The notes below the pieces were generated by a model. It was not told where the DNA came from. It was given only the letters and a program-made list of their open reading frames with translations, and searched no databases. A program made the translations under genes and the position numbers. A DNA stretch of 64,000 nucleotides from an uncultured bacterium (lineage in GTDB: Bacteria > Omnitrophota > Gorgyraeia > Duberdicusellales > CBEUCJ01), in assembly GCA_965541615.1 (NCBI GenBank), contig CBEUCJ010000001.1, positions 3,754 to 67,753 of the forward strand, given 5' to 3'. Position 1 is the stretch's first letter. Each line of letters opens with the position of its first letter. Shown in pieces: positions 49,947 through 63,841 of this stretch.

Positions 49947-50865
49947 GATAACTAACCAATGTAACTTAAGATGTAAAATCTGCAGTATATGGAAAGAGAA
50001 AGAAAAAAGAATCTTGCATCTTGACCAAATAAAAAAAGTCTTAGAATCTATTCATAATCCTGTAACAGTATCTTTAACAGGTGGAGAACCTTTTCTGCAT
50101 CCACAAATAAATCAAATATACAGGTATCTATTCAAACTCTTCCTCAAAAAAAAGGTAAAAAACATAGATATTTCCACTAATGGATACTCAACAAAAATAC
50201 TTCAATTCATAAAGATTAATCAAAATTACCTTCAACCTTTATCTTTCTCAATAAGCTTAGATGGAGTTAAAGAAACCCACGATCTTCAAAGAGGCAAAAA
50301 GGGTGCTTTTGAAAATACATTGAAAAACATCTTAGATATAAAAAAATACAACATTCCCATAACTTTAAAATTTGTAATTTCTAAAATAAATTATCGTGAC
50401 TTAATGAAGATATATAAGTTATCAAAAAAAATAAATATACCTTTAGCAGTAAAACTCGTAGAAAGAGTTCCTAATTATTACCATCGTAGCGAAAAAAGAA
50501 AAAAAATTTTGTGGAATAAAAAAGAAATTGAGTTCATAAAAAAAACTTTTGAAGATATTTTAAAAGATTTAAAAAATATAAGAAATAAATTTTTAATCTT
50601 TGTTTTTTTGAACATAAAACACTTCATAGAAGAAAACAATCTTAATTTTATAAAAAGATGTTTAACCCCCAAATATTCTTTATTCATTACTTCTTACGGA
50701 AAAATATACAATTGTCTTTATCAGGAAAGTATAGGAAATATCAAAGACTGGCCAAATTTAAAATGGGAAAAAGCTCACAAAATTTCAAAAAATGCACTTA
50801 AAGGGATCTGCCCTAAGTGCCTTTCTTACCACGGATATTTAAAAGAGTTTAATGTCAAGCATTAA
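49915..50865 (+). CDS. Radical SAM protein, family C (paralog)
   Basis: ITNQCNLRCKICSIWKEKEK...LTGGEPFLHP; C-terminal CLTPKYSLFITSYGKIYNC...CPKC. Confidence 0.75.
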   Translation: MIEELKEITFEITNQCNLRCKICSIWKEKEKRILHLDQIKKVLESIHNPVTVSLTGGEPFLHPQINQIYRYLFKLFLKKKVKNIDISTNGYSTKILQFIKINQNYLQPLSFSISLDGVKETHDLQRGKKGAFENTLKNILDIKKYNIPITLKFVISKINYRDLMKIYKLSKKINIPLAVKLVERVPNYYHRSEKRKKILWNKKEIEFIKKTFEDILKDLKNIRNKFLIFVFLNIKHFIEENNLNFIKRCLTPKYSLFITSYGKIYNCLYQESIGNIKDWPNLKWEKAHKISKNALKGICPKCLSYHGYLKEFNVKH

Positions 50866-51955
50866 AAAATGCAATTATACTTTCTATGATATATTCTGCC
50901 TCTTGCTCTTTCATAAATGAAAATAAAGGTAGATGTATTGCTTTATGATAGTATCTTTCACTGTTAGGAAACTTCCCCTTAGAAAATCTTTTGAAAATAG
51001 ACATCAAATGCAAAGGACAATAAGGCTCCTGCCAAATGATTCCTTTTTCTTTTAAGTACTTACCTAAACTATCTCTTTCCTTAGAAAAAATTACAAAATT
51101 TTGAGGAACAGAAACACTATCTTTTCTATCTTTAAAGATTTTTATACTTTTAATTTTCCCTAATCTCTCTTCATATATTTTTTTTATCTTTAAACGTGAT
51201 TTTATTATTTCCTTCAAATATTTAAATTTAACTTTAATAGAAATCAAATCCAAAAAATACATACGTGAAAATCTTTTTCCAGCATTAAGTAAAACTTCAT
51301 CGTCTTTCCAGATTCTTGTATAATCAAGCAATTTTTTATATCTCTCATTGTTGAAACAAACCATCCCCCCTCCCCCTCCACAACTTGAAAGGGGTTTATA
51401 ATAAGAAAATGAAAAACATGAAATATCTCCAAAAGAACCTAATTTTTTACCTTTATATTCTGAGCTCTCTGCTTGGCAACAATCCTCAATCACATATAAG
51501 TTGTATTCTTTGGCAATCTCTAAAATCTTTTCAATGTTACATGGTCTTGCAAACATATGGACTGCAATGATTGCTTTTGTATTTTTTTTAATATTTTTTT
51601 TGATTAAATTCTCATCTATCTCTAAATCTTCTTCTTTTATATCTACAAAAATAGGCTCTGCTCCTGTATAAATCACACTCAAAGGAACAGCTGGATAAGT
51701 TACATTAGGAAGAATAACACTATCACCTTTGCCTATCCCTAAGGTGAGTAAGCTTAAACACAGAGCATCTGTTCCTGAATTGACTGCAATAGCATATTTT
51801 GTGCCGATATATTTAGCAAAAGTAATCTCAAATTCTTTTAAAAGAAGCTCTATATCATTAATTCCTCTGATTTTTTTTAAATCTTTCTCTAATTGTTGCT
51901 GATACTCTTTGATAAGGGCTCGATCTATTCTATTATCTTCATATCTTATTACCAT
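50855..51955 (-). CDS. DegT/DnrJ/EryC1/StrS family PLP-dependent aminotransferase (paralog)
   Basis: AIAVNSGTDALCLSLLTLGIGKGDSVILPNVTY...VHMFARP...VIEDCCQAESSEYKGKKLGSFGDISCFSFSYYKPLSSCGGGGG. Confidence 0.8.
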   Translation of the reverse strand: MVIRYEDNRIDRALIKEYQQQLEKDLKKIRGINDIELLLKEFEITFAKYIGTKYAIAVNSGTDALCLSLLTLGIGKGDSVILPNVTYPAVPLSVIYTGAEPIFVDIKEEDLEIDENLIKKNIKKNTKAIIAVHMFARPCNIEKILEIAKEYNLYVIEDCCQAESSEYKGKKLGSFGDISCFSFSYYKPLSSCGGGGGMVCFNNERYKKLLDYTRIWKDDEVLLNAGKRFSRMYFLDLISIKVKFKYLKEIIKSRLKIKKIYEERLGKIKSIKIFKDRKDSVSVPQNFVIFSKERDSLGKYLKEKGIIWQEPYCPLHLMSIFKRFSKGKFPNSERYYHKAIHLPLFSFMKEQEAEYIIESIIAFFNA

Positions 51956-52988
51956 TGTTTTTACAAAAAAATAAATCTAATTTCTGAATCTCCTCACATA
52001 AATTTTGATAAACTTTAAATCTCTTCTCTAAATGAGCATCCTTACTTTTATTTAAAATAAGTCCAGCATTAAAATTGCTAAATTCTCTGTAACTTTTCTT
52101 TTCTTTGAAGAAAAATTTAATTTTCTCAAGATACTCTTTAAGATTCTTCTCAAAAATATAGATTTCTTTATTTGTCAATTTCATTATAAAAAAATCTTTC
52201 TGTAGTTCATAAGGGAAAGGTAAATAAGTCCAATTAGGAAGGACAAATCCATCTGGCCTTATAACCAAATCTAAAAAGAAATCGATTTTAAAACTATAGT
52301 CTTTACATACCAAATATTTATGCTCATTTTTTTCATATTCAAGGATTCTAACATATTGCTTAATAAATTCAGAAGCTTCTTTTTCCTTCCACTCTGCTAA
52401 AAAAGCTGGATGGACCTCTATAGCACTTAACCCCAGGGAAACTAATTCTCTAAAATTATTAAACATATACTTTGTCTCCTGAGGATGAACAGTCATTGTA
52501 GGAGTTAAAGTTAATTTATATTTTATCAGTAATTCTAAATTTTTTATACATTTATTAAAGCTTTCTCTATCAAGACCTTTTCTATGTCTAAAATTAGTCA
52601 AGAAACCTCCGTCTATACCTGGTTCTATAATCACATTATTCTCTTTTAAAAATTTTATTTTTTGAACACTCAAAAAATATAAATTTGTCTGTAAAGTAAT
52701 TTTGCTCTCTGAATGATAAATACGAACGTATTCTATTAAATCTTTCACAAAATTCCAACATAATAAAGGTTCTCCTCCAGAGATTACGAAATCATAATTT
52801 TTATTCGCAGGTAACATTCTTAATAAAGATAGTGCCTGTGAAAACTTAAGATTCTTTTTCCCTTCTCTTTTAAAAAAACAGTAATCACAATTTAAATTAC
52901 ATTTTTCTGTAATAAAGAGCCAAATGTTTCCTATTTTGAGTTTTTTAAAAATCTGATCGTTTTCTAAAATTTTTAAGACACCTTTCAT
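51939..52988 (-). CDS. Radical SAM protein, family B (paralog)
   Basis: ITEKCNLNCDYCFFKREGKKN...ISGGEPLL. Confidence 0.75.
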   Translation of the reverse strand: MKGVLKILENDQIFKKLKIGNIWLFITEKCNLNCDYCFFKREGKKNLKFSQALSLLRMLPANKNYDFVISGGEPLLCWNFVKDLIEYVRIYHSESKITLQTNLYFLSVQKIKFLKENNVIIEPGIDGGFLTNFRHRKGLDRESFNKCIKNLELLIKYKLTLTPTMTVHPQETKYMFNNFRELVSLGLSAIEVHPAFLAEWKEKEASEFIKQYVRILEYEKNEHKYLVCKDYSFKIDFFLDLVIRPDGFVLPNWTYLPFPYELQKDFFIMKLTNKEIYIFEKNLKEYLEKIKFFFKEKKSYREFSNFNAGLILNKSKDAHLEKRFKVYQNLCEEIQKLDLFFCKNNGNKI

Positions 52989-53055
52989 TTAAAATTAAAA
53001 AATACTCTTGCAGAATAATTCAAAATGTTATAATAAAATATCATCTTCATCTTGA

Positions 53056-53919
53056 ATGCTGTGGTTTTACATTTTAATCATTTTTACAGGCATTTTAACT
53101 ACAATCACAGATATAACCGAGCATAAAATAAAGAATAAACATCTTCTTTTTATAAGTCTTGTAGGAATCTTTTTATATATTATACTCTTCATAAAAAAGG
53201 AATTAAAGTTTTCCCTCAATATGTTACTCAATCCATTTGTAAGTTTAATCATTGGATTTATTCTTTACAAAAATAACTTGTGGCGTGCAGGTGATGGAAA
53301 ATTATTTTTTATTTACTCTCTGCTCTTACCTTTAAACAAGTATTCCTCAATACTTCCTTTTTCTTGTTTTACTTTATTTTTAAACACCTTCTTAATAGCT
53401 TTTTTATTTATATTACCAAGTGTTATTAAAAATTTTTTAAAAAACAAAGAAATTTTTAAAAAATTAATCTCCAAAAAAACTTTTTTATATTTTGGAAGAA
53501 TCTTTTTAATAACCTTTTGCCTTTCTTGGATGATAAGACCTCTCTTATATAAACTCCATTTAGAAAAAAATATTTTTTTTAATTTTATTCTCTTGTATAC
53601 AGGATACTCTTTTATTCGTTCTTCTTTTAAGAAAATTAAAAATAAATTTATTAGTTTTTACATCATACTTATAGCTTTAATCTTAAGATACCTTCTTTTC
53701 CCAGAGAGTCTTTCTATTACAAGCATAATAAATTATTTAAAATATTTATTTTCTTACTCTTTGATCATTTATCTTTTAAAGGATAAATCCATTTTAGACA
53801 AAACTTTTCAAAAAAGAGTCCCTTTTGCACCTTTTATGTTCATAGGTGCTTTACTTACTAATACAGATTTTTTGAAATGGGTCTTAAAAACTTTAGCTTA
53901 CCTGAAACGGTTAATTTAA
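53056..53919 (+). CDS. A24 family (prepilin peptidase/TadV/FlaK-like) membrane aspartyl protease
   Basis: Polytopic membrane protein. First Asp block TITDITEHKIKNKHLLF. Second block NNLWRAGDGKLFFIYSLLLPL matches the G-x-G-D-x-K-L active-site motif. No pilin gene is nearby. Confidence 0.5.
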   Translation: MLWFYILIIFTGILTTITDITEHKIKNKHLLFISLVGIFLYIILFIKKELKFSLNMLLNPFVSLIIGFILYKNNLWRAGDGKLFFIYSLLLPLNKYSSILPFSCFTLFLNTFLIAFLFILPSVIKNFLKNKEIFKKLISKKTFLYFGRIFLITFCLSWMIRPLLYKLHLEKNIFFNFILLYTGYSFIRSSFKKIKNKFISFYIILIALILRYLLFPESLSITSIINYLKYLFSYSLIIYLLKDKSILDKTFQKRVPFAPFMFIGALLTNTDFLKWVLKTLAYLKRLI

Positions 53920-55205
53920 ATAAGATTCTAATTTCTATAGAAAATTACATAGGAAAAGTTAAAAAAGAAGATTTTATTATACACATTCACATAGATGAAA
54001 AGAAAATTACTCTATCAGCAATAAAACTATTATATCTACTCTTAAACAATTATGAAGATAATTATTTTATTATCATTAAAAACCTTCCTTACTGTCTTAT
54101 GCCAGATGCTTTAGAACACATTGTTTACGAAAAGATTCCGAAGAATAAATATCATTATGATGAAATTTGTGAAAAATGTTACTTAAAGAACATTTGTCCT
54201 GGATGGAATGAATCTTTAAACATTGAGAGGAATAAAGTAAACTTACCTAAAGACATTCCTAAAGAAATAGTGATGGAAATAACTACTAAATGTAATCTTA
54301 ATTGTAGGTGTTGTAATTTAGATAAAAGCAACCCTATAAATGCTGAATTTAAAATAGTAAAAAATATAATAGATGAGTGCAAAACTTTAGGAATAAGAGC
54401 TGTAAGATTTACAGGAGGAGAACCTTTATTAAATCCTGATTTAGAAAAGATGCTCTCTTATGCAAAAAGAAATGGATTTTATGTATTACTCAATACTAAT
54501 GCTACTCTTTTAAATTCTCATCTATTAAAGATTTTAGAAAAAAATGTAGATAATGTCCTAATTTCTTTGCAAGGTTACAATCAAACTTCAGAAAGAAGAT
54601 TAACAAATTCTCACATAGATTTCAACAAAAAGCTTACTAACGTAATTAAATTGAATTTTAGAATCCCTATAGTAAGAATTGGTAGTGTAATATCTAAAAC
54701 TTTAATTGAAAATTTTAATAGATATTATTATCTATTAAAAAAGATTGGGATAAAACATTGGGAATTATACAGGCCTATTCTCAAAGATGATGAAGAATTT
54801 GAAATATCTAAAAAGGATTTGATAAAAATCATGTGTCTCTTAATTGAAATAAAAAAAACAGGAATGAAAACAAAAATTGCAAATCCTCTTCCTTTCTGTA
54901 TAGTAAAAAACAAAAAAATTTCTTTAATGAGCCTTTTGGGAGGAATAGCTGATGATGGACACTCAAGAATTGTGTGGGATGCAAAAGGATATTTTAAGCC
55001 AAGTTATTTTATAAATGTGTATTTAGGAAAAACTATTGAGGAATCTTGGCAGGCTCCTTTTTTAAAAAAGTTAAGATCCTTAGACTATCTACCTCAAAAA
55101 TGTAAAGAGTGTTATTATTTGAAATGGTGTAAAGGTGGAAGTAGAGCTTTAGCAAAAATTTTCAATAAGAATTATTTTTCTTCTGATCCTCTTTTTAAAA
55201 CTTAA
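53877..55205 (+). CDS. Radical SAM/SPASM-type protein with ~115-aa Cys-containing N-terminal extension
   Basis: MEITTKCNLNCRCCNLDKS CxxxCxxC at ~residue 130, TGGEPLLNPD, C-terminal CKECYYLKWCKGGS. N-terminal CEKCYLKNICPGW could bind metal or serve as a recognition domain. Confidence 0.7.
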   Translation: MGLKNFSLPETVNLNKILISIENYIGKVKKEDFIIHIHIDEKKITLSAIKLLYLLLNNYEDNYFIIIKNLPYCLMPDALEHIVYEKIPKNKYHYDEICEKCYLKNICPGWNESLNIERNKVNLPKDIPKEIVMEITTKCNLNCRCCNLDKSNPINAEFKIVKNIIDECKTLGIRAVRFTGGEPLLNPDLEKMLSYAKRNGFYVLLNTNATLLNSHLLKILEKNVDNVLISLQGYNQTSERRLTNSHIDFNKKLTNVIKLNFRIPIVRIGSVISKTLIENFNRYYYLLKKIGIKHWELYRPILKDDEEFEISKKDLIKIMCLLIEIKKTGMKTKIANPLPFCIVKNKKISLMSLLGGIADDGHSRIVWDAKGYFKPSYFINVYLGKTIEESWQAPFLKKLRSLDYLPQKCKECYYLKWCKGGSRALAKIFNKNYFSSDPLFKT

Positions 55206-55207
55206 TC

Positions 55208-56020
55208 TTACCAAATTTCTCCAAGAGTCTTTATATAAGAATTTAAACAAGCTTTCTTAATCTTTGAATTTTCTATAAGCTCACAAAGATTCTTATCTTT
55301 TTCTTTTCTTGAAAGATTAAAAATAGCTATATCTCTTGTTATTTTTTCTATCTTTTCTTTTGGATCTGAAGAAAATATTATCTCACAGGCAAACTGCTTA
55401 CATAAAGGAAGTTCTTCTCCTTTCAAATATCTTTCACAAGCTAAACAACTATATTTTTTAAAACCCCAAAATACAGCTATCATTTCTATAATATCATACC
55501 TATCTACACCGCTATTCTCAAAAGGAGAAAAAGAAATTGCTTTCAAAACTAAATCTGCATCACCATTAAAAACTCCTTCACAAAAAATTTTCTCCCAACC
55601 ACTTAAAATACTACAATTACCATTCTTAAAAGCAATGCAAACTTTTTCTGGATCCTTAAAAACTTCTTCATTTTCTTCAACAAAATCTCTGCATCTTCCT
55701 TCCCCTAAGTACCTCATAGATAACATACCATTCGCTGAGCTTCTACAATCTTCTGTCTCACATACATTTAAATCATCTTCTCTTACAGCAATATATTTTT
55801 GAAAGCACTCATAATATTTACTATTCTTTATAAATTCCATCTCTTTCTTTATTTTCTCTTCTATATCTTCTTTTTCTTCAGTTTTTTCTACAGAAAGTTT
55901 TTTAGGTAAAAAAATTACAACTTTTTTTTGCTGAGAAAAAGTCAATTGGAATATAAAAATAAAGGAAAAAACAAACAAGATTTTCTTCAACATTGATTTT
56001 AAAAATTTAATAAGAAGCAT
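55208..56020 (-). CDS. Cys-rich secreted/lipoprotein-like hypothetical protein
   Basis: N-terminal signal/TM (ILFVFSFIFIFQLTFSQQ); 14 Cys in the mature region. Overlaps the upstream small ORF by 14 bp. Confidence 0.5.
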   Translation of the reverse strand: MLLIKFLKSMLKKILFVFSFIFIFQLTFSQQKKVVIFLPKKLSVEKTEEKEDIEEKIKKEMEFIKNSKYYECFQKYIAVREDDLNVCETEDCRSSANGMLSMRYLGEGRCRDFVEENEEVFKDPEKVCIAFKNGNCSILSGWEKIFCEGVFNGDADLVLKAISFSPFENSGVDRYDIIEMIAVFWGFKKYSCLACERYLKGEELPLCKQFACEIIFSSDPKEKIEKITRDIAIFNLSRKEKDKNLCELIENSKIKKACLNSYIKTLGEIW

Positions 56021-56300
56021 GATTAGTATGAATAGAAGAATTTGTATGTGTAAAATGCACTTTTACGCAACAACCAGATGCAGAAGTACTACATTGAGGA
56101 GAGCAAACATTTTTATGACTTGAGTGCGAAGTATGACCTGCAAAAGAATGAGTTAAAGAACTCATTATTCCTAATGCAGAAATCGTTCCCAAACCTATTT
56201 TTAAAATATTTTCTTTAGAAACAAAACCTTTCTCATCTTTTATAAAATCTTTAATGTCTTTTTTAAGATTATTAAATTTATTTTTTTTACTTTTTTTCAT
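56007..56300 (-). CDS. Small precursor-like protein with charged leader, hydrophobic segment and a His/Ser/Thr/Cys-rich C-terminal tail (His-Xaa-Ser-like)
   Basis: Strong SD AAGGAGGTG 6 nt upstream of the ATG. Sequence: MKKSKKNKFNNLKKDIKDFIKDEKGFVSKENILKIGLGTISALGIMSSL-THSFAGHTSHSSHKNVCSPQCSTSASGCCVKVHFTHTNSSIHTNHASY. It starts 4 bp downstream of a SPASM maturase-type rSAM. Confidence 0.6.
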   Translation of the reverse strand: MKKSKKNKFNNLKKDIKDFIKDEKGFVSKENILKIGLGTISALGIMSSLTHSFAGHTSHSSHKNVCSPQCSTSASGCCVKVHFTHTNSSIHTNHASY

Positions 56301-56304
56301 TTTT

Positions 56305-57690
56305 TCACCTCCTTCTTATCCATGATTTAAATATTTTAACATTTTCTTCGTCTTCTAAAATTTTTTCAAAAATACACCTAAATTGGTAATTATAAATTTT
56401 GTAAATAAAAGAACACCAAATTTTAGGAACAAAATTTCTCTGTGTATAATAGTTTAACACAGGACACGTTCCTATCCAAGGCAAAAATGCAGAATTATAA
56501 TCCCACATGTTTACTACAGAAGTATACAAAAGATAAAGGAGCCTTTCTTTTTTAATTATATCCTCATAATTTTCTTTTAAAATATTTCCTAACTTAAATG
56601 TATCTTCATCTACCATCCTTGCTTCATCACAGGGAAAACAACTCCCATCAGGCATATAAGTTATCACATTTCTTCCTGCTCCACATGGATTCATCAAATC
56701 TACATACCCAGCATCCATTTTATTAAAAACTTTCTCTAAAATTACTCTTGCTATTCTTTCTTTTATATAAATCCCTTTTTTATTCAATTCCAAAATGTAA
56801 TCTAATGATTTTTTATAAAACTCACCAAACTCTTCAGCAGTGTATCCTAAATTCAACCAATTTCTGCATGCTACTCCTAATCTATTTACAGGTCTAAGAG
56901 AAATCTCCTCTTGCCCCCATCTTACATATTCATCTATTATCTCCTTATAATACTTTAAAGAATGTTTAGTAATTGTAGGTAATAAATGCACTTTCATCTT
57001 AAATTTCTTTCTAATTTTCTCAATCTTTTTTGCCACAATATCATAACTTCCTTTCCCATTTTTAAATATTCTATTTTTATCATGAAGAAACTTAGGACCA
57101 TCTAAAGAAGTACATATTTCAACATTAAATTTTTTTAAAAATTCCATTTTCTCTTCTGTAAGTAGTGTTAGGTTACTTACTAAAGCGATCCTTAAATTTA
57201 CCTCTTTTCTTTGAAACTTCTTAGCATTTTCTACTAAAAAAGAAACTATCTCCCAGTTAAGTAAAGGTTCTCCTCCTTGAAATTCTAAAGTTACATACGG
57301 ATTTCTCACATCAAAAATGAATTTTAAAACTCGTGTTGCAACCTCATAATTCATATTCTCTTTTTTAAAAGACCTTGTTTGACAGTATCTGCAACTTAAA
57401 TTACAAGCTGTGGTTACTACTGCAATATGAAGAGAAGTATCACTAAAAAGATGCCCATTCAGATTTCTATATTCATTAATCAAATTTTTCAAATTATTCT
57501 CATCTACAATTAAACCTTTTTCATATAATCTTTTAAATAAGGGAGTATTTTCTTTGACTTTTAATGAATTTAATTCTTTAAATTCTTCTTTTGTTAAAAA
57601 ATCCCAACCTCCTAAAAAATTGGATACAAGATATCTATCCTTAATAATAGTTGAATTAAAAGGTAAAATTGCAAATCTTCTATTCTCCAT
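56305..57690 (-). CDS. Radical SAM/SPASM domain peptide-maturase-type enzyme with N-terminal ~85-aa extension
   Basis: VVTTACNLSCRYCQ CxxxCxxC at ~residue 95 and ...FQGGEPLL. SPASM signature CGAGRNVITYMPDGSCFPCDE. The N-terminal extension is RRE/PqqD-like in length. Confidence 0.75.
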   Translation of the reverse strand: MENRRFAILPFNSTIIKDRYLVSNFLGGWDFLTKEEFKELNSLKVKENTPLFKRLYEKGLIVDENNLKNLINEYRNLNGHLFSDTSLHIAVVTTACNLSCRYCQTRSFKKENMNYEVATRVLKFIFDVRNPYVTLEFQGGEPLLNWEIVSFLVENAKKFQRKEVNLRIALVSNLTLLTEEKMEFLKKFNVEICTSLDGPKFLHDKNRIFKNGKGSYDIVAKKIEKIRKKFKMKVHLLPTITKHSLKYYKEIIDEYVRWGQEEISLRPVNRLGVACRNWLNLGYTAEEFGEFYKKSLDYILELNKKGIYIKERIARVILEKVFNKMDAGYVDLMNPCGAGRNVITYMPDGSCFPCDEARMVDEDTFKLGNILKENYEDIIKKERLLYLLYTSVVNMWDYNSAFLPWIGTCPVLNYYTQRNFVPKIWCSFIYKIYNYQFRCIFEKILEDEENVKIFKSWIRRR

Positions 57691-57711
57691 AACTTTAATT
57701 TATCACAGGTT

Positions 57712-58097
57712 TAAACTCATCTATTCCATCAATATCATGCAAAGCAGGAGCAAATTCATTCATTCCTGCTAACAGTATTTTTTGCAAAAATCGAGTGAAG
57801 AAAACATCCTTCCATTAGTTTGAATCTGTATGAGAAGATAACCTAACTTTTTAGCAAATCTAACTATTTCAAAAACATCTTTTCTAATAGTCACTTCTCC
57901 TTCTGTAAATACTACTTCTCTGCACCTTTTAAATAAGCTTCTTCTAATTCTTGTTTTATTTCTTGCGTTGTCTTATCAGGATATATACGTTTATCTGCAA
58001 CTACACAAAATTTACAATCATTTATACAAGAATGACCTACAAAGAGGACTAATCTTTTAACTTGAGGGGGGATTTTATAAAGAAGTTTTTGTTTCAC
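57712..58097 (-). pseudogene. Frameshifted, truncated radical SAM gene remnant
   Basis: Frame 1 (58097->57912): MKQKLLYKIPPQVKRLVLFVGHSCINDCKFC...YLKGAEK*. A second frame continues VFTEGEVTIRKDVFEIVRFAKKLGYLLIQIQTNGRMF...KKYC*. A third gives ILLAGMNEFAPALHDIDGIDEFKPVIN*. Together ~128 aa of an rSAM N-terminal half split over three frames. Confidence 0.6.
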
Positions 58098-58344
58098 TCC
58101 TCAAAAGGTAAATTAAATAATTTAAAAAATCAAAACAATTTTGTAGATTAAACTTATTCAATTTTAAAAAATAATATTTATTTTTTTCTTTAATAGAAAG
58201 AATAAACTCTGCATTCTCTTTTTGTAATCTTTCAAGTATCTCTTTTGAATAAAGATCTCTATGCAATTTTAAAAAAATATTGTTTCTGTTTATTTTTAAA
58301 AAAGGCAAGTTACTTTTTTGCAGATTTCTTTTCCTCTTCTTCAA
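58075..58344 (-). CDS. Hypothetical small protein (89 aa)
   Basis: ORF overlapping both neighbours; K-rich; no motif. May be a spurious overlap. Confidence 0.25.
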   Translation of the reverse strand: MKKRKRNLQKSNLPFLKINRNNIFLKLHRDLYSKEILERLQKENAEFILSIKEKNKYYFLKLNKFNLQNCFDFLNYLIYLLRSETKTSL

Positions 58345-58705
58345 GTTCTTTAATCAACTCTTCTATTTCTCTTTCTTCAGCTTCTTGCACCAAAGAAGGA
58401 GCAGCTGAAAATAAAGCTCTTTGTAGTAAAGTCTTAACTACCTCACCATTAACTTTAAGACTTTCAAAATAATGGGCGTAGTTAATTAATTCATTATAAA
58501 ATTCCATTCCTAATTTATCTAAATTTTCTTTTTTGTCTTTAGGAAACAGCCAAATTTCTACAGTTTTATTCTTTTTTTTATCCAAATAAATATACGCTCT
58601 ATCTAAAAATACATAACTAGCAGAATATACAGTTGAAAGAGGATAAACATCTAAATCTGTAGTCAATCTTACCCAATTTTTCCCTTTTTTTATAACCTTC
58701 TCCAT
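58310..58705 (-). CDS. Hypothetical small protein (131 aa) with acidic C-terminal tail
   Basis: MEKVIKKGKNWVRLTTDLDVYPLSTVYSASYVFLDRAYIYLD... followed by a polyglutamate-rich tail. Tightly coupled to the next gene (stop/start adjacent). Confidence 0.45.
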   Translation of the reverse strand: MEKVIKKGKNWVRLTTDLDVYPLSTVYSASYVFLDRAYIYLDKKKNKTVEIWLFPKDKKENLDKLGMEFYNELINYAHYFESLKVNGEVVKTLLQRALFSAAPSLVQEAEEREIEELIKELEEEEKKSAKK

Positions 58706-59158
58706 CTAATCCCAACAATTGCAGAACCAAATTTCTTTAACTTTCAAGACTCCAGGATTACCAGTTGATGTTGTTACTCTAGTGTGATTACTTTTTAATA
58801 CTGTTTTTCCTCCAGTGTAAAGATAGATATCTTTACCTCCATATGTAAAGATCGTAAAATCATCTCCATCTCCATAAGTAGGCGAATTTCTATTCCACAT
58901 TATTCCTGCAATATAATTACCACTAGCATCAGCTGCTCCTACACTTGGACCTTTTGAAATTCTTAAGTAATGGTAAGAACTTCCCTCAAAATTTAATTGC
59001 AAATATTTCATTCTTGTAATATAGCTTTCTAACTCTTTATATACTCCGTAAGGAGCAGGATAATAAGTAGTAATTGTGATCTTCTCTTGAGAATAAACTA
59101 CTATACTTCCACACAATAATACAACACTTATCCCTAAAATAATTATTTTTCTTATCAT
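58706..59158 (-). CDS. Secreted hypothetical protein (signal peptide; C-terminal CNCW)
   Basis: N-term MIRKIIILGISVVLLCGSIVVYSQE is signal-peptide-like. Gly/Thr/Tyr-rich beta-type sequence. Confidence 0.45.
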   Translation of the reverse strand: MIRKIIILGISVVLLCGSIVVYSQEKITITTYYPAPYGVYKELESYITRMKYLQLNFEGSSYHYLRISKGPSVGAADASGNYIAGIMWNRNSPTYGDGDDFTIFTYGGKDIYLYTGGKTVLKSNHTRVTTSTGNPGVLKVKEIWFCNCWD

Positions 59159-59262
59159 TATTTCATATTATCTCTCTCAAAGTAGATAATGTCAATAATA
59201 TTATTTTATTAAAACTTGATCTAACTTCTATTGCGCTTAGAATAAAATTTATAAAAACTTTT

Positions 59263-60461: not shown

Positions 60462-60602
60462 ATGAAAAAGAGGTTAACTACTCCTACAAAATTAAAAGGA
60501 AAAAGGACTCATGGGTTTTTAAAAAGAATGAGCACAAGAGCTGGTAGAAAAGTTTTGAAAAGAAGAAGGAAAAAGGGACGCTGGAGACTTGTACCTGTAT
60601 AG
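60462..60602 (+). CDS. rpmH: 50S ribosomal protein L34
   Basis: [46 protein letters not shown] (46 aa), missed by the ORF track because it is under 60 aa. Confidence 0.9.
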
Positions 60603-60816
60603 AAGATTTTTACTTTTTTTAATATTTTTAATAGAATCTTTTAAAAAAATAAAAAGTTTCTTATTTCCATCTACTTGTAAATATATTCCTTCCTGTTCAG
60701 AATATTTGAAAATAGCTATAATAAAAAAGGGTATATTAAAAGGGTTTTTAAAGTTTCTTATAAGAATTTTGAAATGTAATCCTTTTTCAAAAGGTGGCTA
60801 CGATCCTGTAACTTAA
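60589..60816 (+). CDS. yidD: Membrane protein insertion efficiency factor YidD
   Basis: [26 protein letters not shown]...[14 protein letters not shown] matches the YidD consensus. Overlaps the rpmH 3' end by 14 bp. Confidence 0.85.
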
Positions 60817-60838
60817 AGTTTTCACGTGAAAACTTTAA
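60813..60838. promoter_or_regulatory. parS-like perfect palindrome (TTAAAGTTTTCACGTGAAAACTTTAA)
   Basis: 26-bp perfect palindrome centred on CACGTG. Its 16-bp core differs from canonical parS TGTTTCACGTGAAACA only at the two symmetric outer positions. Lies between the yidD stop and the yidC start. Confidence 0.6.
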
Positions 60839-60845
60839 TAATAAA

Positions 60846-62204
60846 ATGAAAGAAGTAAGATTGCTCTTAGCTTTTACTCTTTCTTTATTAGTCCTTTTCA
60901 TATTTAATCTTTTCTTTTATACACCTCCTTCTAAATTTGAAGAAAAAAAAGTAAATAAAACTCTTACTATACCTACTTCCAAAGATCTATACTTTGAAAA
61001 CGAATCTTTAAAAATAACCTTTTCAAAAGAATATGGTTTTATAAAAGAAATATATTTAAAAAAATTCTCAGAAACTCTCACTTACAAGAATCTTTTTTTC
61101 TTACCAAAGTTTAAAAGTAAAGATATTATAACAACCAGTAATTCAGTAATTTTTAAAGGTGAATTTGGTGAGATAAGATACAAAATAAAAAAATATTTTT
61201 TGACTGTCTCATTTAAAAATTTAAAGGATTCCTTAAAAGAATTTCTGATCTTTGAAAAGTATCCTGACAAAGAAAAGATCAATCAAAGATTTGTAGAAGT
61301 ATTTTATTACAAAAATAATAAGCTTTATAGAAAAAGAGGAAAAACTCAGATAGACAATTTTTCATGGGGAGGTATTAGAGGAAGATACTTTTGCCTAATT
61401 TTTGAACCAGATAAACCAATAAAATGGAAACATAAAAGAAAAAATGGAAAATTCATCTCTACAATTTTGGCAAATTCTGATTCTTTAACCATAAATTGCT
61501 TTATAGGACCTCAAATTAAGGAACTACTCAAAGATGAATGGCAACAGATACTTTATTATGGATTCTTTAGTGGAATTTCCAAATTTATATTAAAAATATT
61601 GAGTTTTTTACACAGTATATTTAAAAATTGGGGGCTCAGTATTATTGTCTTAACTGTCTTAATTTATATAATCCTCTTTCCTTTTACGATTCAAACCACA
61701 AAATCTACGTTAAAGATGCAAGAAATTCAACCAGAAATAGAAAGATTGAAAAAACAATATAAAGATAATCTCCAAAAGTTAAATAAGGAACTCTTAGAAC
61801 TTTACAGAAAACATAAAATAAACCCTCTAAGTGGGTGCTTACCTCTATTTTTTCAAATCCCTGTATTTATTGGATTATATCAAGCTTTAATGCGAGCTAT
61901 AGAATTAAAAGGAGCAAAATTTTTATGGATAAAGGATTTATCTCTTCCTGACAGAACTATAACTATAGGGAATGTAAATATAAATGTACTCCCTATATTA
62001 ACAGCTCTATTATTCTTTTTTCAACAAAAATTTTACTCAACACAAACTTCATCTGAACAGAAAAAATTTTTTGAAATTTTCTTCCCTTTATTTTTCGCAG
62101 TTATCTTTTATTCTTTTCCTTCAGGTTTTCTTTTATATTGGTTGTCTAACTCTATACTGACTCTTCTGTATTATTTAAGATTAAAAACTCTCAAAAATTT
62201 ATGA
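60846..62204 (+). CDS. yidC: Membrane protein insertase YidC
   Basis: N-terminal TM, periplasmic domain, conserved C-terminal 5-TM core (...PLFFQIPVFIGLYQAL..., FLWIKDLSLPD). Confidence 0.85.
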   Translation: MKEVRLLLAFTLSLLVLFIFNLFFYTPPSKFEEKKVNKTLTIPTSKDLYFENESLKITFSKEYGFIKEIYLKKFSETLTYKNLFFLPKFKSKDIITTSNSVIFKGEFGEIRYKIKKYFLTVSFKNLKDSLKEFLIFEKYPDKEKINQRFVEVFYYKNNKLYRKRGKTQIDNFSWGGIRGRYFCLIFEPDKPIKWKHKRKNGKFISTILANSDSLTINCFIGPQIKELLKDEWQQILYYGFFSGISKFILKILSFLHSIFKNWGLSIIVLTVLIYIILFPFTIQTTKSTLKMQEIQPEIERLKKQYKDNLQKLNKELLELYRKHKINPLSGCLPLFFQIPVFIGLYQALMRAIELKGAKFLWIKDLSLPDRTITIGNVNINVLPILTALLFFFQQKFYSTQTSSEQKKFFEIFFPLFFAVIFYSFPSGFLLYWLSNSILTLLYYLRLKTLKNL

Positions 62205-62210
62205 TATAAT
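62202..62210 (+). promoter_or_regulatory. Extended -10 promoter element (TGaTATAAT) for parAB
   Basis: TGnTATAAT at 62202-62210, 29 nt upstream of the parA ATG, immediately followed by the parS-like palindrome. Confidence 0.4.
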
Positions 62211-62217
62211 ATTTTTT

Positions 62218-62237
62218 AAGTTTTCACGTGAAAACTT
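62218..62237. promoter_or_regulatory. parS-like palindrome (AAGTTTTCACGTGAAAACTT), second copy
   Basis: Identical 20-mer to 60816..60835. Sits between the -10 element and the parA start codon (ATG 62239). Confidence 0.6.
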
Positions 62238-62238
62238 T

Positions 62239-63051
62239 ATGGGAAAAGTAATAGGAATTTGTAATCAAAAAGGAGGAACAGGCAAAACTACTACTGCAGT
62301 AAATTTATCTGCTTTTTTGGGATTAGCTGGAAAAAAAGTTTTATTAATAGATATGGACCCTCAAGCAAATGCTACGAGTGGTGTAGGAGTAGAAAAAAGA
62401 AACCCTAATATTTATGAATGCTTAATAGAAAATTTGGATTTTAGAGAGGTTATAACTAAAACAGAATTTCCAAATCTTTGGATTATACCTGCAAATGAGA
62501 GTTTATCTGGTGCAAGGGTGGAATTAATAGAGGTTGAAAATAGAGAGTTCAGGTTAAAAATGATTACTCAAACCTTAAAAGAAGATTTTGATTTTTTAAT
62601 AATAGATGCTCCTCCTTCTTTAGGGATTCTAACTATAAATGTTTTGACTTGTGCAGATTCTGTACTCATTCCTCTTCAATGTGAATATTACTCATTAGAA
62701 GGAATAGGACAATTAATGAATACTATAAATTTAGTCAAAAAAAATCTAAACCCTGATTTAGAAATTGAAGGAGTAATAATGACTATGGCAGATTTCAGGA
62801 CTACTCTCACTCAAGAAGTAATTTTAGAAGTTAGAAAATTTTTTAAAGAAAAGGTATTTAAAACCATCATCCCTAGGAATGTAAAATTAGCTGAAGCTCC
62901 GAGTTTTGGAAAACCTGTTTATTTTTATGATAAAAACTCTACAGGTTCTAAAGCTTATTTTAAATTGACTAAAGAGTTATTAAATGAAGAAATAGAAGGA
63001 GTATATAATGAAGAGAAAATTGGGCAAAGGGTTGCAGGCTTTAATACCTGA
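62239..63051 (+). CDS. parA: Chromosome partitioning ATPase ParA/Soj
   Basis: Deviant Walker A CNQKGGTGKTTTAVNL, DMDPQANAT, IIDAPPSLG. Confidence 0.9.
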   Translation: MGKVIGICNQKGGTGKTTTAVNLSAFLGLAGKKVLLIDMDPQANATSGVGVEKRNPNIYECLIENLDFREVITKTEFPNLWIIPANESLSGARVELIEVENREFRLKMITQTLKEDFDFLIIDAPPSLGILTINVLTCADSVLIPLQCEYYSLEGIGQLMNTINLVKKNLNPDLEIEGVIMTMADFRTTLTQEVILEVRKFFKEKVFKTIIPRNVKLAEAPSFGKPVYFYDKNSTGSKAYFKLTKELLNEEIEGVYNEEKIGQRVAGFNT

Positions 63052-63841
63052 GATAAAGACTTTTCCTAAAGAAGTTCAAAAAGTCAAAATAGAAGAGATT
63101 AAACCGTCTCCTTATCAACCAAGATTAAAAACAGATGAAAAAAGGATCTTAGAATTGATGAATTCTATACGAGAAAAAGGGATCCTGCAACCTTTAATTG
63201 TAAGAAAAAAAGAAACAGGCTTTGAGTTAGTAGCTGGGCACAGACGTTATGAAGCAGCTAAAAGATTGAATTTAAAAGAAGTCCCTGTAATTACAAAAGA
63301 ACTTACAGATAAAGAAGTATTAGAAATCTCTCTTATAGAAAATCTTCATAGAGAAAATCTTAATCCTATTGAAGAAGCTAAAGCTTTCAAAAGATTAATA
63401 GAAGAATTCAATTACACTTTAGAAGATATAGCTCATTTCTTAAGTAAAGACAAAAGCACAATCTCAAATACACTCAGACTTCTAAAACTACCTTCAATTA
63501 TCCAAAAATCTTTAGAAGAAAACAAAATCACACCAGGACACGCAAGAGCTTTATTATCCTGTGAAGACCCTAAAAAACAGATAATTATTTTTGAAAAAAT
63601 TTTAAATGAAAATCTGAGTGTAAGAGAAACAGAGAATTTAGTCCAAAAAGAAAGTCTCACAAAAACTAAAAAGTTTAAAAAAGATTTTAAAATCTTAGCA
63701 TATGAAGATGAATTGAGAAAAGATTTAGGGATAAAAGTAAAGATTACTCAAAGTAAGAAAAATATAAAAGTTATCCTTGAATTTTGTGATAAAGAAGAGT
63801 TAGAAAGATTTATAAGAAAAATAAAAAATGCCATCTTTTGA
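63008..63841 (+). CDS. parB: Chromosome partitioning protein ParB/Spo0J
   Basis: KRKLGKGLQALIP N-term, GILQPLIVRKKETGFELVAGHRRYEAAKRLNLKEVPVI ParB box, HTH (TLEDIAHFLSKDKSTISNTLRLLKLP). Confidence 0.9.
   Translation: MKRKLGKGLQALIPEIKTFPKEVQKVKIEEIKPSPYQPRLKTDEKRILELMNSIREKGILQPLIVRKKETGFELVAGHRRYEAAKRLNLKEVPVITKELTDKEVLEISLIENLHRENLNPIEEAKAFKRLIEEFNYTLEDIAHFLSKDKSTISNTLRLLKLPSIIQKSLEENKITPGHARALLSCEDPKKQIIIFEKILNENLSVRETENLVQKESLTKTKKFKKDFKILAYEDELRKDLGIKVKITQSKKNIKVILEFCDKEELERFIRKIKNAIF

What the first reader, a model, noticed from the sequence alone, without database searches (positions are those of the whole stretch)
56007..58705. Candidate RiPP-like operon with a His-Xaa-Ser-like tail peptide next to a SPASM maturase rSAM, plus a decayed second rSAM and small accessory proteins
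The 97-aa ORF at 56007..56300 is very likely translated, given its SD AAGGAGGTG at optimal spacing. It has a highly basic leader, a Gly-rich hydrophobic segment (KIGLGTISALGIMSSL) and a polar tail. The tail is full of His-x-Ser/Thr triplets (HTS, HSS, HFT, HTN, HTN, HAS) and carries 4 Cys (CSPQCSTSASGCC). The rSAM 4 bp upstream has an RRE-sized N-terminal extension plus a SPASM CGAG...G.C.PC signature, which is typical of peptide-modifying maturases. Further upstream lie a frameshifted rSAM remnant and two small proteins. The layout recalls the bioinformatically defined His-Xaa-Ser (Hxs) systems: HxsA repeat peptide, two rSAMs HxsB/HxsC and small HxsD. Here one rSAM has apparently been lost.
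Basis: partly seen in the sequence, partly recalled or inferred. Interest (0 to 1): 0.8.

Follow-up and report, generated by a model that had tools for sequence, protein, structure and literature searches.

The report
His-Xaa-Ser peptide system, one enzyme lost
This is a variant of the known His-Xaa-Ser system, in which radical-SAM enzymes modify a small exported histidine-rich peptide (an anti-phage defence in E. coli). It sits in what is probably an Omnitrophota genome and has lost one of its two enzymes, as many relatives have.

Summary
On the minus strand lie hxsD, a small HxsD-like ORF, an hxsC pseudogene, hxsB and a 97-aa precursor.

- **Family matches.** HxsB scores 398 bits against TIGR03978 (cutoff 370). 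HxsD carries Pfam PF27806. The peptide best matches NCBIfam HxsA3, at 49 bits against a cutoff of 65.
- **The pseudogene is real.** It has two frameshifts and an internal deletion of about 178 codons. Three further contigs from other datasets, 99.4% identical, carry the same lesions.
- **Relatives.** Seven to eight related Omnitrophota lineages keep an intact hxsC of 308-315 aa at this position. About 19 others have none and still keep intact hxsD, hxsB and hxsA. The window therefore shows an intermediate stage of a recurrent loss, not necessarily a dead system.

New points:
- The peptide core is 33% diverged between near-identical strains, against a 0.6% background.
- The number of C-terminal HxS triplets tracks the presence of hxsC.
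- An A24-type (prepilin-peptidase-like) gene is linked to these clusters in both Omnitrophota and DPANN archaea.

The E. coli version was shown in 2026 to block phage DNA entry. Function here is inferred only. Verdict: a new variant of a known kind, of moderate interest.

The parts
56007..56300 (-). hxsA-like precursor peptide (97 aa). Basic leader (residues 1-34), invariant ILKIGLGTISALG hydrophobic segment, an SFA|GH signal-peptidase-like site, then a His/Ser/Thr/Cys-rich core ending ...HASY.
   Evidence: NF038309 HxsA3, 49.4 bits (cutoff 65), E=3e-13. Twenty homologues, all from Omnitrophota where named. Always directly downstream of hxsB. The leader family was found in 78 distinct peptides across 95 loci.
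56010..56153 (-). Hypervariable core of hxsA (codons 50-97).
   Evidence: 47 of 144 nt differ from L001/L002/L003, against 56 of 9053 in the flanks and 1 of 147 in the leader. dS 0.53, dN 0.40. No template-like repeat anywhere in the window.
56305..57690 (-). hxsB: radical SAM/SPASM peptide maturase (461 aa) with an N-terminal extension of about 90 aa.
   Evidence: TIGR03978, 398.3 bits (cutoff 370), profile positions 2-466 of 466. PF04055, PF13186. Best solved relative is 5wgg, E=1e-22. 32-36% identical over full length to PGAP-annotated proteobacterial HxsB. dN/dS about 0.07 between the two strain alleles.
57695..58097 (-). hxsC pseudogene. Codons ~1-121 are spread over three reading frames, with frameshifts near 57915-57921 and 57775-57790. 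These are fused to the last 13 codons (...EFKPVIN*). About 178 internal codons are deleted.
   Evidence: Three-frame translation. The joined product best hits HxsC4 NF038332 at 63 bits, positions 5-123 of 335. Alignment to intact 308-315-aa homologues. tblastn pieces q11-59, q48-107, q104-121, q300-312. Identical lesions in L001/L002.
58075..58344 (-). Small HxsD-like ORF ('Drel'; homologous part 58099..58311) with a C-terminal FDFLNYLIYLxR motif. Start codon uncertain: a TTG overlapping hxsD by 35 nt, or the TTG at 58306-58308.
   Evidence: 73-74-aa homologues sit between hxsD and hxsC or hxsB in at least 12 lineages. NF038315 'HxsD-like' E=0.14 here and E=7e-5 for the L007 homologue, both below cutoff. 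Profile comparison with HxsD is not significant.
58310..58705 (-). hxsD (131 aa).
   Evidence: TIGR03976, 44 bits (cutoff 50), E=2e-11. The exact protein carries PF27806 (HxsD) in precomputed annotation, and 280 homologues exist, several named HxsD by JGI. AF2 model pLDDT 86, b-b-a-b-b plus long helices.
58706..59158 (-). 150-aa protein with an N-terminal signal/anchor and a TTYYPxPYGVY motif. Its stop abuts the hxsD start, so it is probably the first gene of the operon.
   Evidence: Zero-nt spacing. Homologues lie upstream of hxsD in L004-6, L009-11, L013-15, L027 and L030. The best promoter-like site, TTGACA-17-GATAAT, lies at 59195..59167 (consensus match only).
55208..56020 (-). Cys-rich secreted 270-aa protein. 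It overlaps the hxsA stop by 14 nt. Probable operon member, function unknown.
   Evidence: Homologues follow hxsA in L001-8, L011, L012, L026-28. In L092/L094 it is flanked by two hxsA paralogues. No Pfam or NCBIfam hit.
53056..53919 (+). A24-family (prepilin/preflagellin-peptidase-like) polytopic membrane protein (287 aa). Candidate leader peptidase; association is inferred from gene linkage only.
   Evidence: PF01478, 24.6 bits (GA 26.5), profile positions 2-103 of 104. The L007 homologue scores 43.7 bits. D19, N27 and G79-D80-x-K82-L83 are conserved in at least 96% of 50 homologues. Found within 7 kb of hxsB in 52 of 95 loci, and directly upstream of hxsD-hxsB-hxsA in DPANN loci.
53877..55205 (+). 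442-aa radical SAM protein, translationally coupled to the A24-like gene by a 43-nt overlap. Conserved neighbour, role unknown.
   Evidence: PF04055, 69.5 bits. No NCBIfam family reaches its cutoff. Homologues are paired with the A24-like gene in most Omnitrophota loci.

Best explanation
The locus is a His-Xaa-Ser (Hxs/HXS) radical-SAM peptide-maturation cluster of the little-described HxsA3/A4-like subtype. It sits in a low-GC (27.7%) genome that is most likely Omnitrophota.

**Gene set.** A tightly packed minus-strand operon runs p150 - hxsD - small HxsD-like ORF - pseudo-hxsC - hxsB - hxsA - Cys-rich 270-aa gene.

**What is shown.**
- hxsB, hxsD and hxsA are intact.
- hxsC is a pseudogene with two frameshifts and an internal deletion of about 178 codons.
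- The same lesions are present in three further contigs of the same species.
- The nearest sampled relative still has an intact hxsC. About 19 other Omnitrophota lineages have no hxsC beside hxsB but keep hxsD, hxsB and hxsA.

**What is inferred.**
1. HxsB is a SPASM enzyme resembling the solved structure 5wgg (which I identify from memory as the thioether-forming enzyme CteB). It binds the conserved leader (FIKDExGFVSKxxILKIG) and modifies the His/Ser/Cys core. HxsD acts as a partner.
2. The hydrophobic segment then directs export, with cleavage either at the signal-peptidase-like SFA|GH site or by the linked A24-type peptidase.
3. The result is a short His-rich peptide outside the cytoplasmic membrane.
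4. The HxsC step has become dispensable in this lineage. In E. coli that step is thought to act with HxsD on the last HxS repeat.
5. The cluster is probably still active as an HxsB-only variant.

**Function.** By analogy with E. coli HXS, the product would be an envelope-located peptide that hinders phage DNA entry. That last step is analogy only.
For: - **Family assignment:**
- **Pseudogene anatomy:**. It is identical in L001/L002, which are 99.4% identical to the window outside the hot-spot.
- **Intact hxsC at the same position:** L004-12, L027, L092, L094.
- **hxsC-less architectures:** D-Drel-B-A in L014, L015, L017, L020, L030, L031. D-B-A in L018, L019, L021-25. Gaps between hxsD and hxsB are too small to hold hxsC.
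- **Tree:** on an HxsB NJ tree, lineages with and without hxsC are interspersed. Window+L001 is sister to hxsC-positive L011 at 78% bootstrap. L004 (hxsC-positive) groups with L017/L020 (hxsC-negative) at 70%. This implies at least 4-5 independent losses.
- **Constraint on hxsB:** dN/dS is about 0.07 in the diverged tract between the two strain alleles. Both hxsA alleles keep the frame, the invariant Cys78, and His and C-terminal Tyr residues.
- **HxS repeats track hxsC:** median 3.5 C-terminal HxS triplets in 8 hxsC-positive loci against 1 in 19 hxsC-negative loci. This fits HxsC acting on that array.
- **E. coli mechanism and the HxsC-HxsD complex:** PMC13128918.
- **Operon structure:** overlaps or 0-5-nt spacers, no terminator-like site, and the best promoter-like site upstream of p150.
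Against: - In E. coli all four genes, including hxsC, are required for HxsA processing and defence (PMC13128918). An hxsC pseudogene could mean the system is inactive.
- The small HxsD-like ORF lacks the ATG start its homologues have.
- The window's hxsA allele has lost one nearly invariant His (position 88). It keeps only one canonical HxS triplet in its last 15 residues. This could be drift.
- Only +/-7 kb was inspected in relatives, so an hxsC copy elsewhere in those genomes is not excluded.
- Eight other rSAM genes lie within 18 kb in the window and could substitute.
- The NJ tree has weak support at several nodes.
- The peptide, HxsD and HxsC-type proteins all score below the curated NCBIfam cutoffs.
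- No chemistry, export or phenotype has been tested. PADLOC v2 has no model for the system.
Confidence: 0.6

Rival explanations
1. Decaying, non-functional remnant. Loss of hxsC inactivated the system, and hxsB, hxsA and the small ORFs are on their way to pseudogenisation.
For: - E. coli genetics: deleting hxsC abolishes HxsA cleavage and defence (PMC13128918).
- The small HxsD-like ORF has lost its ATG.
- The window's hxsA allele deviates from family invariants: H88 is replaced by S, there are three extra Cys, and only one C-terminal HxS triplet remains.
Against: - hxsB is full length with all Cys motifs, scores above the HxsB trusted cutoff, and shows dN/dS of about 0.07.
- hxsD and hxsA are intact in both alleles.
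- About 19 species-level lineages retain intact hxsD-hxsB-hxsA without hxsC. That would not be expected if hxsC loss were inactivating.
- The 33% divergence of the core cannot be neutral drift when flanking synonymous divergence is 0-4%.
Confidence: 0.28
2. Same biosynthetic machinery, but the product is not a phage barrier. It would be a secreted or surface His-rich peptide with another role: metal binding, a bacteriocin-like RiPP, or a surface factor for cell-cell contact in these ultra-small, possibly host-dependent organisms.
For: - The cluster is syntenic across Omnitrophota from 28% GC to high GC. It is embedded in envelope-glycan genes (DegT, GT28, polysaccharide deacetylase) next to rpmH-yidC-parAB, not in a mobile defence island.
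- The peptide lacks the peptidoglycan-binding domain that E. coli HxsA needs.
- A conserved leader with a hypervariable core is typical of RiPP precursors (the generalisation is from my own knowledge).
- HxsB-plus-peptide loci are common in DPANN and CPR genomes.
Against: - The only experimental function for any Hxs system is anti-phage (PMC13128918).
- Strain-level hypervariability also fits an arms race.
- Nothing here tests metal binding or antimicrobial activity.
Confidence: 0.3
3. The rSAM is not a peptide maturase but, for example, an anaerobic sulfatase maturase or cofactor enzyme. On this reading the 97-aa ORF is an unrelated small membrane protein.
For: Weak generic similarity to anSME (TIGR03942, 102 bits; PDB 4k37, E=4e-16) and to pVip models.
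Against: - anSME scores 102 bits against a cutoff of 349, whereas HxsB scores 398 against 370.
- The peptide gene follows hxsB in every related locus, and its leader family co-occurs with hxsB in 78 distinct cases.
- No sulfatase gene is in the neighbourhood.
Confidence: 0.02
4. The core hypervariability is produced by a diversity-generating retroelement or by silent-cassette conversion within the locus.
For: The variable region is the 3'-terminal ~140 nt of the ORF, flanked by invariant sequence, as in DGR targets.
Against: - No template-like repeat of the core and no second hxsA copy exists in 64 kb.
- Substitutions include all base classes, and many adenines are conserved.
- No reverse transcriptase was noticed among the genes examined.
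- The adjacent 3' kilobase of hxsB is also diverged, at 5% and mostly synonymous. That points to recombination with a diverged allele.
Confidence: 0.03

Closest known systems
E. coli/Klebsiella HXS anti-phage system (HxsA-D; Li et al., Nat Commun 2026, PMC13128918; TIGR03976-TIGR03979)
   Same: - An HxsB-family SPASM rSAM: above the TIGR03978 cutoff and 32-36% identical over full length to annotated HxsB.
- An HxsD-family small protein.
- A second rSAM of HxsC type, present ancestrally.
- A ribosomal substrate with a hydrophobic export segment and C-terminal His-x-Ser triplets.
   Different: - The substrate is 97 aa, not 214 aa, and has no peptidoglycan-binding domain.
- It has a long conserved leader of about 35 aa ahead of the hydrophobic segment, and only four H-x-[ST] triplets.
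- Gene order is D-(Drel)-C-B-A instead of D-B-C-A.
- hxsC is a pseudogene, although hxsC is essential in E. coli.
- An extra HxsD-like ORF is present, with a Cys-rich protein and an A24-peptidase/rSAM pair linked to the cluster.
- The host is Omnitrophota. The paper reports 99.7% of HXS systems in Pseudomonadota.
- Function is untested.
NCBIfam HxsA3 / HxsA4 / HxsC4 / HxsD-like models (NF038309, NF038313, NF038332, NF038315)
   Same: These are the best-scoring models for the peptide (HxsA3), for the hxsC remnant and its intact homologues (HxsC4), and for the small ORF's homologues (HxsD-like). The leader type K-I-K-K-x-I-x-x-F-L-x-x-E-E-G-x-I-S-K is shared with DPANN and CPR peptides. One of those (L038) passes the HxsA4 cutoff.
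   Different: All window and Omnitrophota proteins score below the curated cutoffs: 49 against 65 for the peptide, 150-175 against 500 for HxsC4, and 12-23 against 41 for HxsD-like. The Omnitrophota peptides replace most of the HxS repeats with a variable, Cys-containing core.
Paraburkholderia-type hxsA2-hxsD-hxsB-hxsC plasmid loci (for example NC_018696.1)
   Same: A short precursor of about 95 aa, ending in tandem HxS repeats and a C-terminal ...S-Y. It is adjacent to hxsD, hxsB and hxsC.
   Different: HxsA2 has a plain N-terminal signal peptide without the extended leader. The gene order differs and hxsC is intact.
SCIFF/CteB-type rSAM-SPASM thioether maturases (PDB 5wgg)
   Same: This is the closest solved structure to HxsB (E=1e-22, residues 50-427). 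It shares the rSAM core and SPASM domain, and the match reaches into the N-terminal extension. The Omnitrophota peptides carry one invariant Cys.
   Different: TIGR03974 scores 124 bits against a cutoff of 425, so HxsB is not a member. Many DPANN and CPR HxsA-like peptides have no Cys at all, so thioether formation cannot be the general chemistry.

Membership tests
His-Xaa-Ser (Hxs/HXS) system | HxsB-family radical SAM/SPASM maturase (TIGR03978) | tested here: met
   398.3 bits against a cutoff of 370, full-length match. 32-36% identity to PGAP-annotated HxsB.
His-Xaa-Ser (Hxs/HXS) system | Second, adjacent radical SAM enzyme HxsC (TIGR03977 or variant), intact | tested here: not met
   Only a pseudogene is present, with two frameshifts and about 178 codons deleted. 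No other HxsC-like gene exists in the 64-kb window; the best other hit is 27% identity to a generic rSAM. Intact homologues in relatives score 86-106 bits on TIGR03977 (cutoff 268) and 150-175 on HxsC4 (cutoff 500).
His-Xaa-Ser (Hxs/HXS) system | HxsD small protein (TIGR03976 / PF27806) | tested here: met
   PF27806 is recorded for this exact protein, P0023. TIGR03976 gives 44 bits, E=2e-11, just under the cutoff of 50.
His-Xaa-Ser (Hxs/HXS) system | Substrate HxsA with tandem His-Xaa-Ser repeats near the C-terminus | tested here: inconclusive
   Four H-x-[ST] triplets are present, of which one lies in the last 15 residues, and the C-terminus is ...HASY, as in HxsA2. The best model, HxsA3, gives 49.4 bits against a cutoff of 65. 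TIGR03979 gives no hit. The family consensus has (HxS)4-Y.
His-Xaa-Ser (Hxs/HXS) system | E. coli-type HxsA architecture: short signal peptide plus peptidoglycan-binding domain | tested here: not met
   The protein is 97 aa with no Pfam domain. The hydrophobic segment lies at residues 32-50, after a long charged leader.
His-Xaa-Ser (Hxs/HXS) system | Canonical gene order hxsD-hxsB-hxsC-hxsA (99.6% of systems per PMC13128918) | tested here: not met
   The order here and in Omnitrophota relatives is hxsD-(HxsD-like)-hxsC-hxsB-hxsA.
His-Xaa-Ser (Hxs/HXS) system | Anti-phage activity by blocking DNA entry; rSAM-dependent modification (+8 Da) and N-terminal processing of HxsA | not testable with these tools
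   Known only from E. coli experiments (PMC13128918).
rSAM/SPASM RiPP maturases with a leader-recognition (RRE-type) N-terminal domain | CxxxCxxC rSAM motif, SPASM auxiliary-cluster domain, N-terminal peptide-binding domain | tested here: inconclusive
   The CxxxCxxC motif (C96/C100/C103) and SPASM (PF13186, 24.1 bits > 21.5) are met. The N-terminal ~90 aa is present, and the match to PDB 5wgg starts at residue 50. No RRE model was run.
Peptidase A24 (type IV prepilin / preflagellin peptidases), for the linked 287-aa protein | Two catalytic Asp motifs in a polytopic membrane protein; Pfam PF01478 | tested here: inconclusive
   PF01478 gives 24.6 bits, just under GA 26.5, but covers positions 2-103 of 104. 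The L007 homologue scores 43.7 bits. D19 and G79-D80-x-K82-L83 are at least 96% conserved in 50 homologues. Cleavage of HxsA is untested. The small residue at the putative -1 site is not significantly tied to presence of the A24-like gene (40/45 against 24/33 Gly, p=0.08).
Diversity-generating retroelement target | Template repeat near the variable region and a reverse transcriptase; adenine-specific substitutions | tested here: not met
   No repeat of the core exists in the window. Substitutions are of all kinds.

The most novel reading that the evidence does not exclude
The HxsA3/A4-type clusters of Omnitrophota, DPANN archaea and CPR bacteria would form a distinct, cross-domain pathway. HxsB alone, with HxsD, matures a leader-bearing, membrane-targeted His/Ser-rich peptide. 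A dedicated A24 (prepilin-peptidase-like) protease removes the leader at the conserved LKxG|hydrophobic junction. The result is a pilin-like anchored or released surface peptide, whose core is swapped between strains like a cassette. HxsC would be an optional module that acts only on tandem C-terminal HxS repeats and is lost when those repeats shrink. On this reading the window records that transition. It would also show that HXS-type envelope peptides are a common feature of ultra-small, host-associated prokaryotes rather than a proteobacterial speciality.
Probability: 0.2. Interest if true: 0.75.

Novelty: new variant of a known kind. Interest (0 to 1): 0.5.

Why it matters
The HXS system has just been shown in E. 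coli to stop phage DNA in the periplasm. Its chemistry (+8 Da on an SHRSS motif) and the division of labour between its two rSAM enzymes are unresolved.

This locus and its relatives offer a natural dissection of that question:
- hxsC has been lost repeatedly, while hxsB, hxsD and the peptide persist.
- The number of C-terminal HxS triplets falls with the loss. This points to HxsC acting on the repeat array and HxsB on something else.
- The family is common outside Pseudomonadota, in Omnitrophota, DPANN and CPR genomes, with a different precursor design.
- An A24-type peptidase is linked to it and is a testable candidate for the unexplained N-terminal processing.
- The strain-level cassette-like core variation suggests ongoing selection on the product.

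None of this overturns current understanding. It extends a known system.

Tried and rejected
- **Exact-sequence look-ups.** The organism is therefore inferred only from relatives, which are Omnitrophota MAGs.
- **Source species among GTDB representatives.** The window's own species is not there; the best HxsB identity is 65%.
- **PADLOC v2.** Only generic rSAM similarity to pVip models was found. There is no Hxs model, so the result is uninformative.
- **DGR or silent-cassette explanation for the core.** No repeat, no second hxsA and no HxsC copy exist in 64 kb. A weak leader-like tblastn hit at 44379..44495 lies in no plausible ORF and is chance.
- **Is the small ORF an HxsD paralogue?.** hhalign gave 5% probability over 28 columns. 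Only sub-threshold NF038315 hits support the name.
- **HxsD fold.** The model is good (pLDDT 86), but no PDB match has E<0.01. The weak resemblances are to Rpb11-like and T3SS-chaperone a/b folds. It is not an obvious PqqD/RRE winged helix.
- **Core hypervariability in the Velamenicoccus-like clade.** This is not supported. The differences there are between two paralogues (a and b), and orthologues are about as diverged as their flanks.
- **Gly at the putative A24 cleavage position against presence of the A24-like gene.** Not significant.
- **Biopython bootstrap.** It timed out and was replaced by a numpy implementation.

Full report
**Observation.** The window has 27.7% GC. Between 55208 and 59158 the minus strand carries a tightly packed gene series:

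| Gene | Coordinates | Note |
|---|---|---|
| 150-aa signal-anchored protein | 58706..59158 | |
| 131-aa ORF | 58310..58705 | start abuts the previous stop |
| 89-aa ORF | 58075..58344 | |
| rSAM remnant | 57695..58097 | readable only in three frames |
| 461-aa rSAM/SPASM protein | 56305..57690 | |
| 97-aa ORF | 56007..56300 | 4 bp after the rSAM; SD AAGGAGGTG 5 nt before its ATG |
| Cys-rich 270-aa ORF | 55208..56020 | overlaps the 97-aa stop |

One correction applies. Only four triplets are true H-x-[S/T]; 'HTN' is not one.

**Family assignment.**
- The 461-aa protein matches TIGR03978 (HxsB) over the full profile at 398 bits, above the curated cutoff of 370. Every other rSAM peptide-maturase family and the sulfatase maturase fall far below their cutoffs.
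- The 131-aa protein matches TIGR03976 (HxsD) at 44 bits (cutoff 50). The exact protein carries Pfam PF27806 (HxsD) in precomputed annotation, with 280 homologues, several named HxsD.
- The 97-aa peptide's best model is NF038309 (HxsA3), E=3e-13, 49 bits against a cutoff of 65.
- Joining the three frames of the remnant gives a 134-aa product. Its best hit is NF038332 (HxsC4), positions 5-123 of 335, and it also hits TIGR03977 (HxsC).
- HxsB is 32-36% identical over full length to PGAP-annotated HxsB on proteobacterial plasmids. In the Paraburkholderia example I opened (NC_018696.1) the locus reads hxsA2-hxsD-hxsB-hxsC, and that HxsA2 ends ...HSSHSSHSSSSY.

**State of knowledge.** The system was defined bioinformatically (Haft & Basu 2011, as cited in PMC9062424). 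In 2026 it was shown in E. coli to be a broad anti-phage system. HxsB, HxsC and HxsD mature HxsA through N-terminal processing and a +8 Da change on an SHRSS motif. HxsA is then exported and blocks phage DNA entry. All four genes are required, HxsC binds HxsD, and 99.7% of detected systems were in Pseudomonadota (PMC13128918). I found no literature on the HxsA3-type.

**The hxsC pseudogene is real.**
- Aligned with intact homologues, the remnant comprises HxsC residues ~1-121, interrupted by two frameshifts near 57915-57921 and 57775-57790.
- This part is fused in frame to the last 13 residues (...EFKPVIN*). About 178 internal codons are missing.
- Three contigs from other datasets (L001 from JGI, L002 from ENA, L003 from Logan) belong to the same species. 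They differ at 56 of 9053 background positions.
- L001 and L002 carry exactly the same lesions. This is not an assembly error.

**Relatives.**
- The peptide has 20 homologues, all from Omnitrophota where named, including Ca. Velamenicoccus archaeovorus.
- Seven to eight lineages have hxsD, a 73-74-aa ORF, an intact hxsC of 308-315 aa, hxsB and hxsA: L004-6, L007/8/12, L009, L010, L011, L027, L092, L094.
- A scan of GTDB species representatives found at least 582 HxsB relatives.
- Among the Omnitrophota-clade loci, about 19 have no hxsC next to hxsB. Six read D-Drel-B-A, seven read D-B-A, and the rest have a gap of 220-324 bp. The spacing leaves no room for hxsC.
- On an HxsB NJ tree the two states are interspersed. 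Window+L001 is sister to hxsC-positive L011 at 78%. L004 (hxsC-positive) groups with L017/L020 (hxsC-negative) at 70%.
- Because hxsC sits at the same position in distant branches, repeated loss is more parsimonious than repeated gain. I estimate at least 4-5 losses, and the window shows one in progress.

Caveats: only +/-7 kb was inspected, and several nodes are weak.

**Is the system still constrained?** Between the window and L002, hxsB codons ~150-450 differ at 5.2% of sites, almost all synonymous (dS 0.16, dN 0.011). This shows an enzyme under purifying selection in both lineages that contributed alleles. hxsD and hxsA are intact. This argues against simple decay, although in E. coli hxsC is essential.

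**Hypervariable core.**
- The last 48 codons of hxsA differ at 47 of 144 nt (dS 0.53, dN 0.40).
- The 49 leader codons differ at 1 nt and the flanks at 0.6%.
- Both alleles keep the frame, the Cys doublet, and the His and C-terminal Tyr residues.
- No template repeat, second hxsA copy or other donor exists in the window, so a DGR is rejected.
- The pattern fits recombinational exchange of the core between conserved arms (the leader, and the HASY-stop), or an import from a diverged allele. This is typical of RiPP precursors; that generalisation is my own knowledge.
- The same was not seen in the Velamenicoccus-like clade. There two paralogous precursors flank the Cys-rich gene.

**Precursor family.**
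- A leader profile finds 78 distinct peptides across 95 loci.
- The consensus is K-(I/L)-P-K-I-K-K-x-I-x-x-F-L-x-x-E-E-G-x-I-S-K-x-x-L-L-K-x-G. It is followed by a hydrophobic stretch, an AxA-like site, then HxS repeats ending in S-Y or S-W.
- DPANN and CPR versions carry up to 33 HxS triplets, and one passes the HxsA4 cutoff.
- Omnitrophota versions have few triplets and a variable core with one invariant Cys.

**HxS repeats and hxsC.** The number of HxS triplets in the last 15 residues has a median of 3.5 in 8 hxsC-positive loci and 1 in 19 hxsC-negative loci. The one-sided Mann-Whitney test gives p=4e-4, not phylogenetically corrected. L027, L017 and L020 are exceptions. The window allele has 1 and the L001 allele has 3. 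This fits the E. coli proposal that HxsC-HxsD acts on the last HxS repeat. It also suggests that HxsC becomes dispensable as the array shrinks.

**Extended neighbourhood.**
- A 287-aa polytopic protein at 53056..53919 (+) matches Peptidase_A24 over the whole profile at 24.6 bits (GA 26.5). The L007 homologue scores 43.7 bits.
- Its two Asp motifs are at least 96% conserved in 50 homologues.
- It overlaps a 442-aa rSAM gene at 53877..55205.
- An A24-like gene lies within 7 kb of hxsB in 52 of 95 loci. In DPANN archaea it is the first gene of a co-directional A24-hxsD-hxsB-hxsA operon, for example L035 1092..4659.
- This makes it a candidate for the unexplained N-terminal processing, with cleavage at the conserved LKxG|hydrophobic junction. 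The evidence is linkage only, and the Gly is not significantly tied to the gene's presence.
- The cluster sits in an rSAM-dense envelope-glycan region close to rpmH-yidD-yidC-parAB. It is syntenic across the phylum, which is unlike a mobile defence island.

**Mechanism.**
- *Shown:* gene content, pseudogene anatomy, conservation patterns and linkage.
- *Inferred:* HxsB recognises the leader through its N-terminal extension. Its closest solved relative is 5wgg, which I identify from memory as CteB. It modifies the core, and HxsD assists. The HxsD model has pLDDT 86 and no informative fold match. The hydrophobic segment exports the peptide, and cleavage leaves a ~45-aa His-rich product at the envelope.
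- *Analogy only:* a role against phage DNA entry.

**Verdict.** This is a new variant of a known kind. The points of interest are the recurrent, here half-completed loss of hxsC, its link to HxS repeat number, the A24 linkage across domains, and the cassette-like core variation.

Noticed in passing
window 38987..57690: Unusual density of radical SAM genes: nine intact ones (38987-40012, 40009-41013, 42174-43145, 47815-48870, 48867-49946, 49915-50865, 51939-52988, 53877-55205, 56305-57690) plus the hxsC pseudogene. They are interleaved with two DegT aminotransferases (43129-44244, 50855-51955) and two GT28 glycosyltransferases (45181-46383, 46407-47615). Parts of this set are syntenic in other Omnitrophota loci. 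Their substrates are unknown.
   Followed up: partly
window 53056..53919 (+) and 53877..55205 (+); L035 1092..4659: An A24-type (prepilin-peptidase-like) membrane protein overlaps a 442-aa rSAM gene by 43 nt. The A24-like gene is within 7 kb of hxsB in 52 of 95 loci. It heads an A24-hxsD-hxsB-hxsA operon in DPANN archaea.
   Followed up: partly
window 55208..56020 (-); L092 3901..5288; L094 2629..4009: A Cys-rich secreted protein of about 250-276 aa, with no family hit, follows hxsA. In Velamenicoccus-like loci it is flanked by two paralogous hxsA genes.
   Followed up: partly
window 58706..59158 (-): A 150-aa signal-anchored protein with a conserved TTYYPxPYGVY motif abuts the hxsD start. It recurs upstream of hxsD in several Omnitrophota lineages. 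No family hit.
   Followed up: no
L034-L091 (loci from genome contigs): HxsB relatives with HxS-repeat peptides are common in genomes labelled DPANN archaea (Woesearchaeota, Aenigmatarchaeota, Nanoarchaeota), CPR bacteria (Saccharibacteria, Parcubacteria), Elusimicrobia and Myxococcota. Peptides carry up to 33 HxS triplets (L038 8495..9076). This contrasts with the published statement that 99.7% of HXS systems are in Pseudomonadota.
   Followed up: partly
L004 2432..3102 (also L005, L006): In one Velamenicoccus-like lineage two extra genes are inserted between hxsC and hxsB: a DUF5674 protein of 113 aa and a 110-aa ORF. They are absent from the window and other relatives.
   Followed up: no
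window 60462..63841: Origin-proximal gene set: rpmH (60462-60602), a yidD-like ORF (60589-60816), yidC (60846-62204), parA (62239-63051) and parB (63008-63841). No rnpA-sized ORF lies between rpmH and yidD, where it usually sits.
   Followed up: no
window 56305..57250 (-): The 3' two-thirds of hxsB is 5.2% diverged from the same-species contigs L001/L002, against a 0.6% background, and almost entirely at synonymous sites. The 5' third and the hxsA leader are essentially identical. This mosaic suggests recombination within the population.
   Followed up: yes
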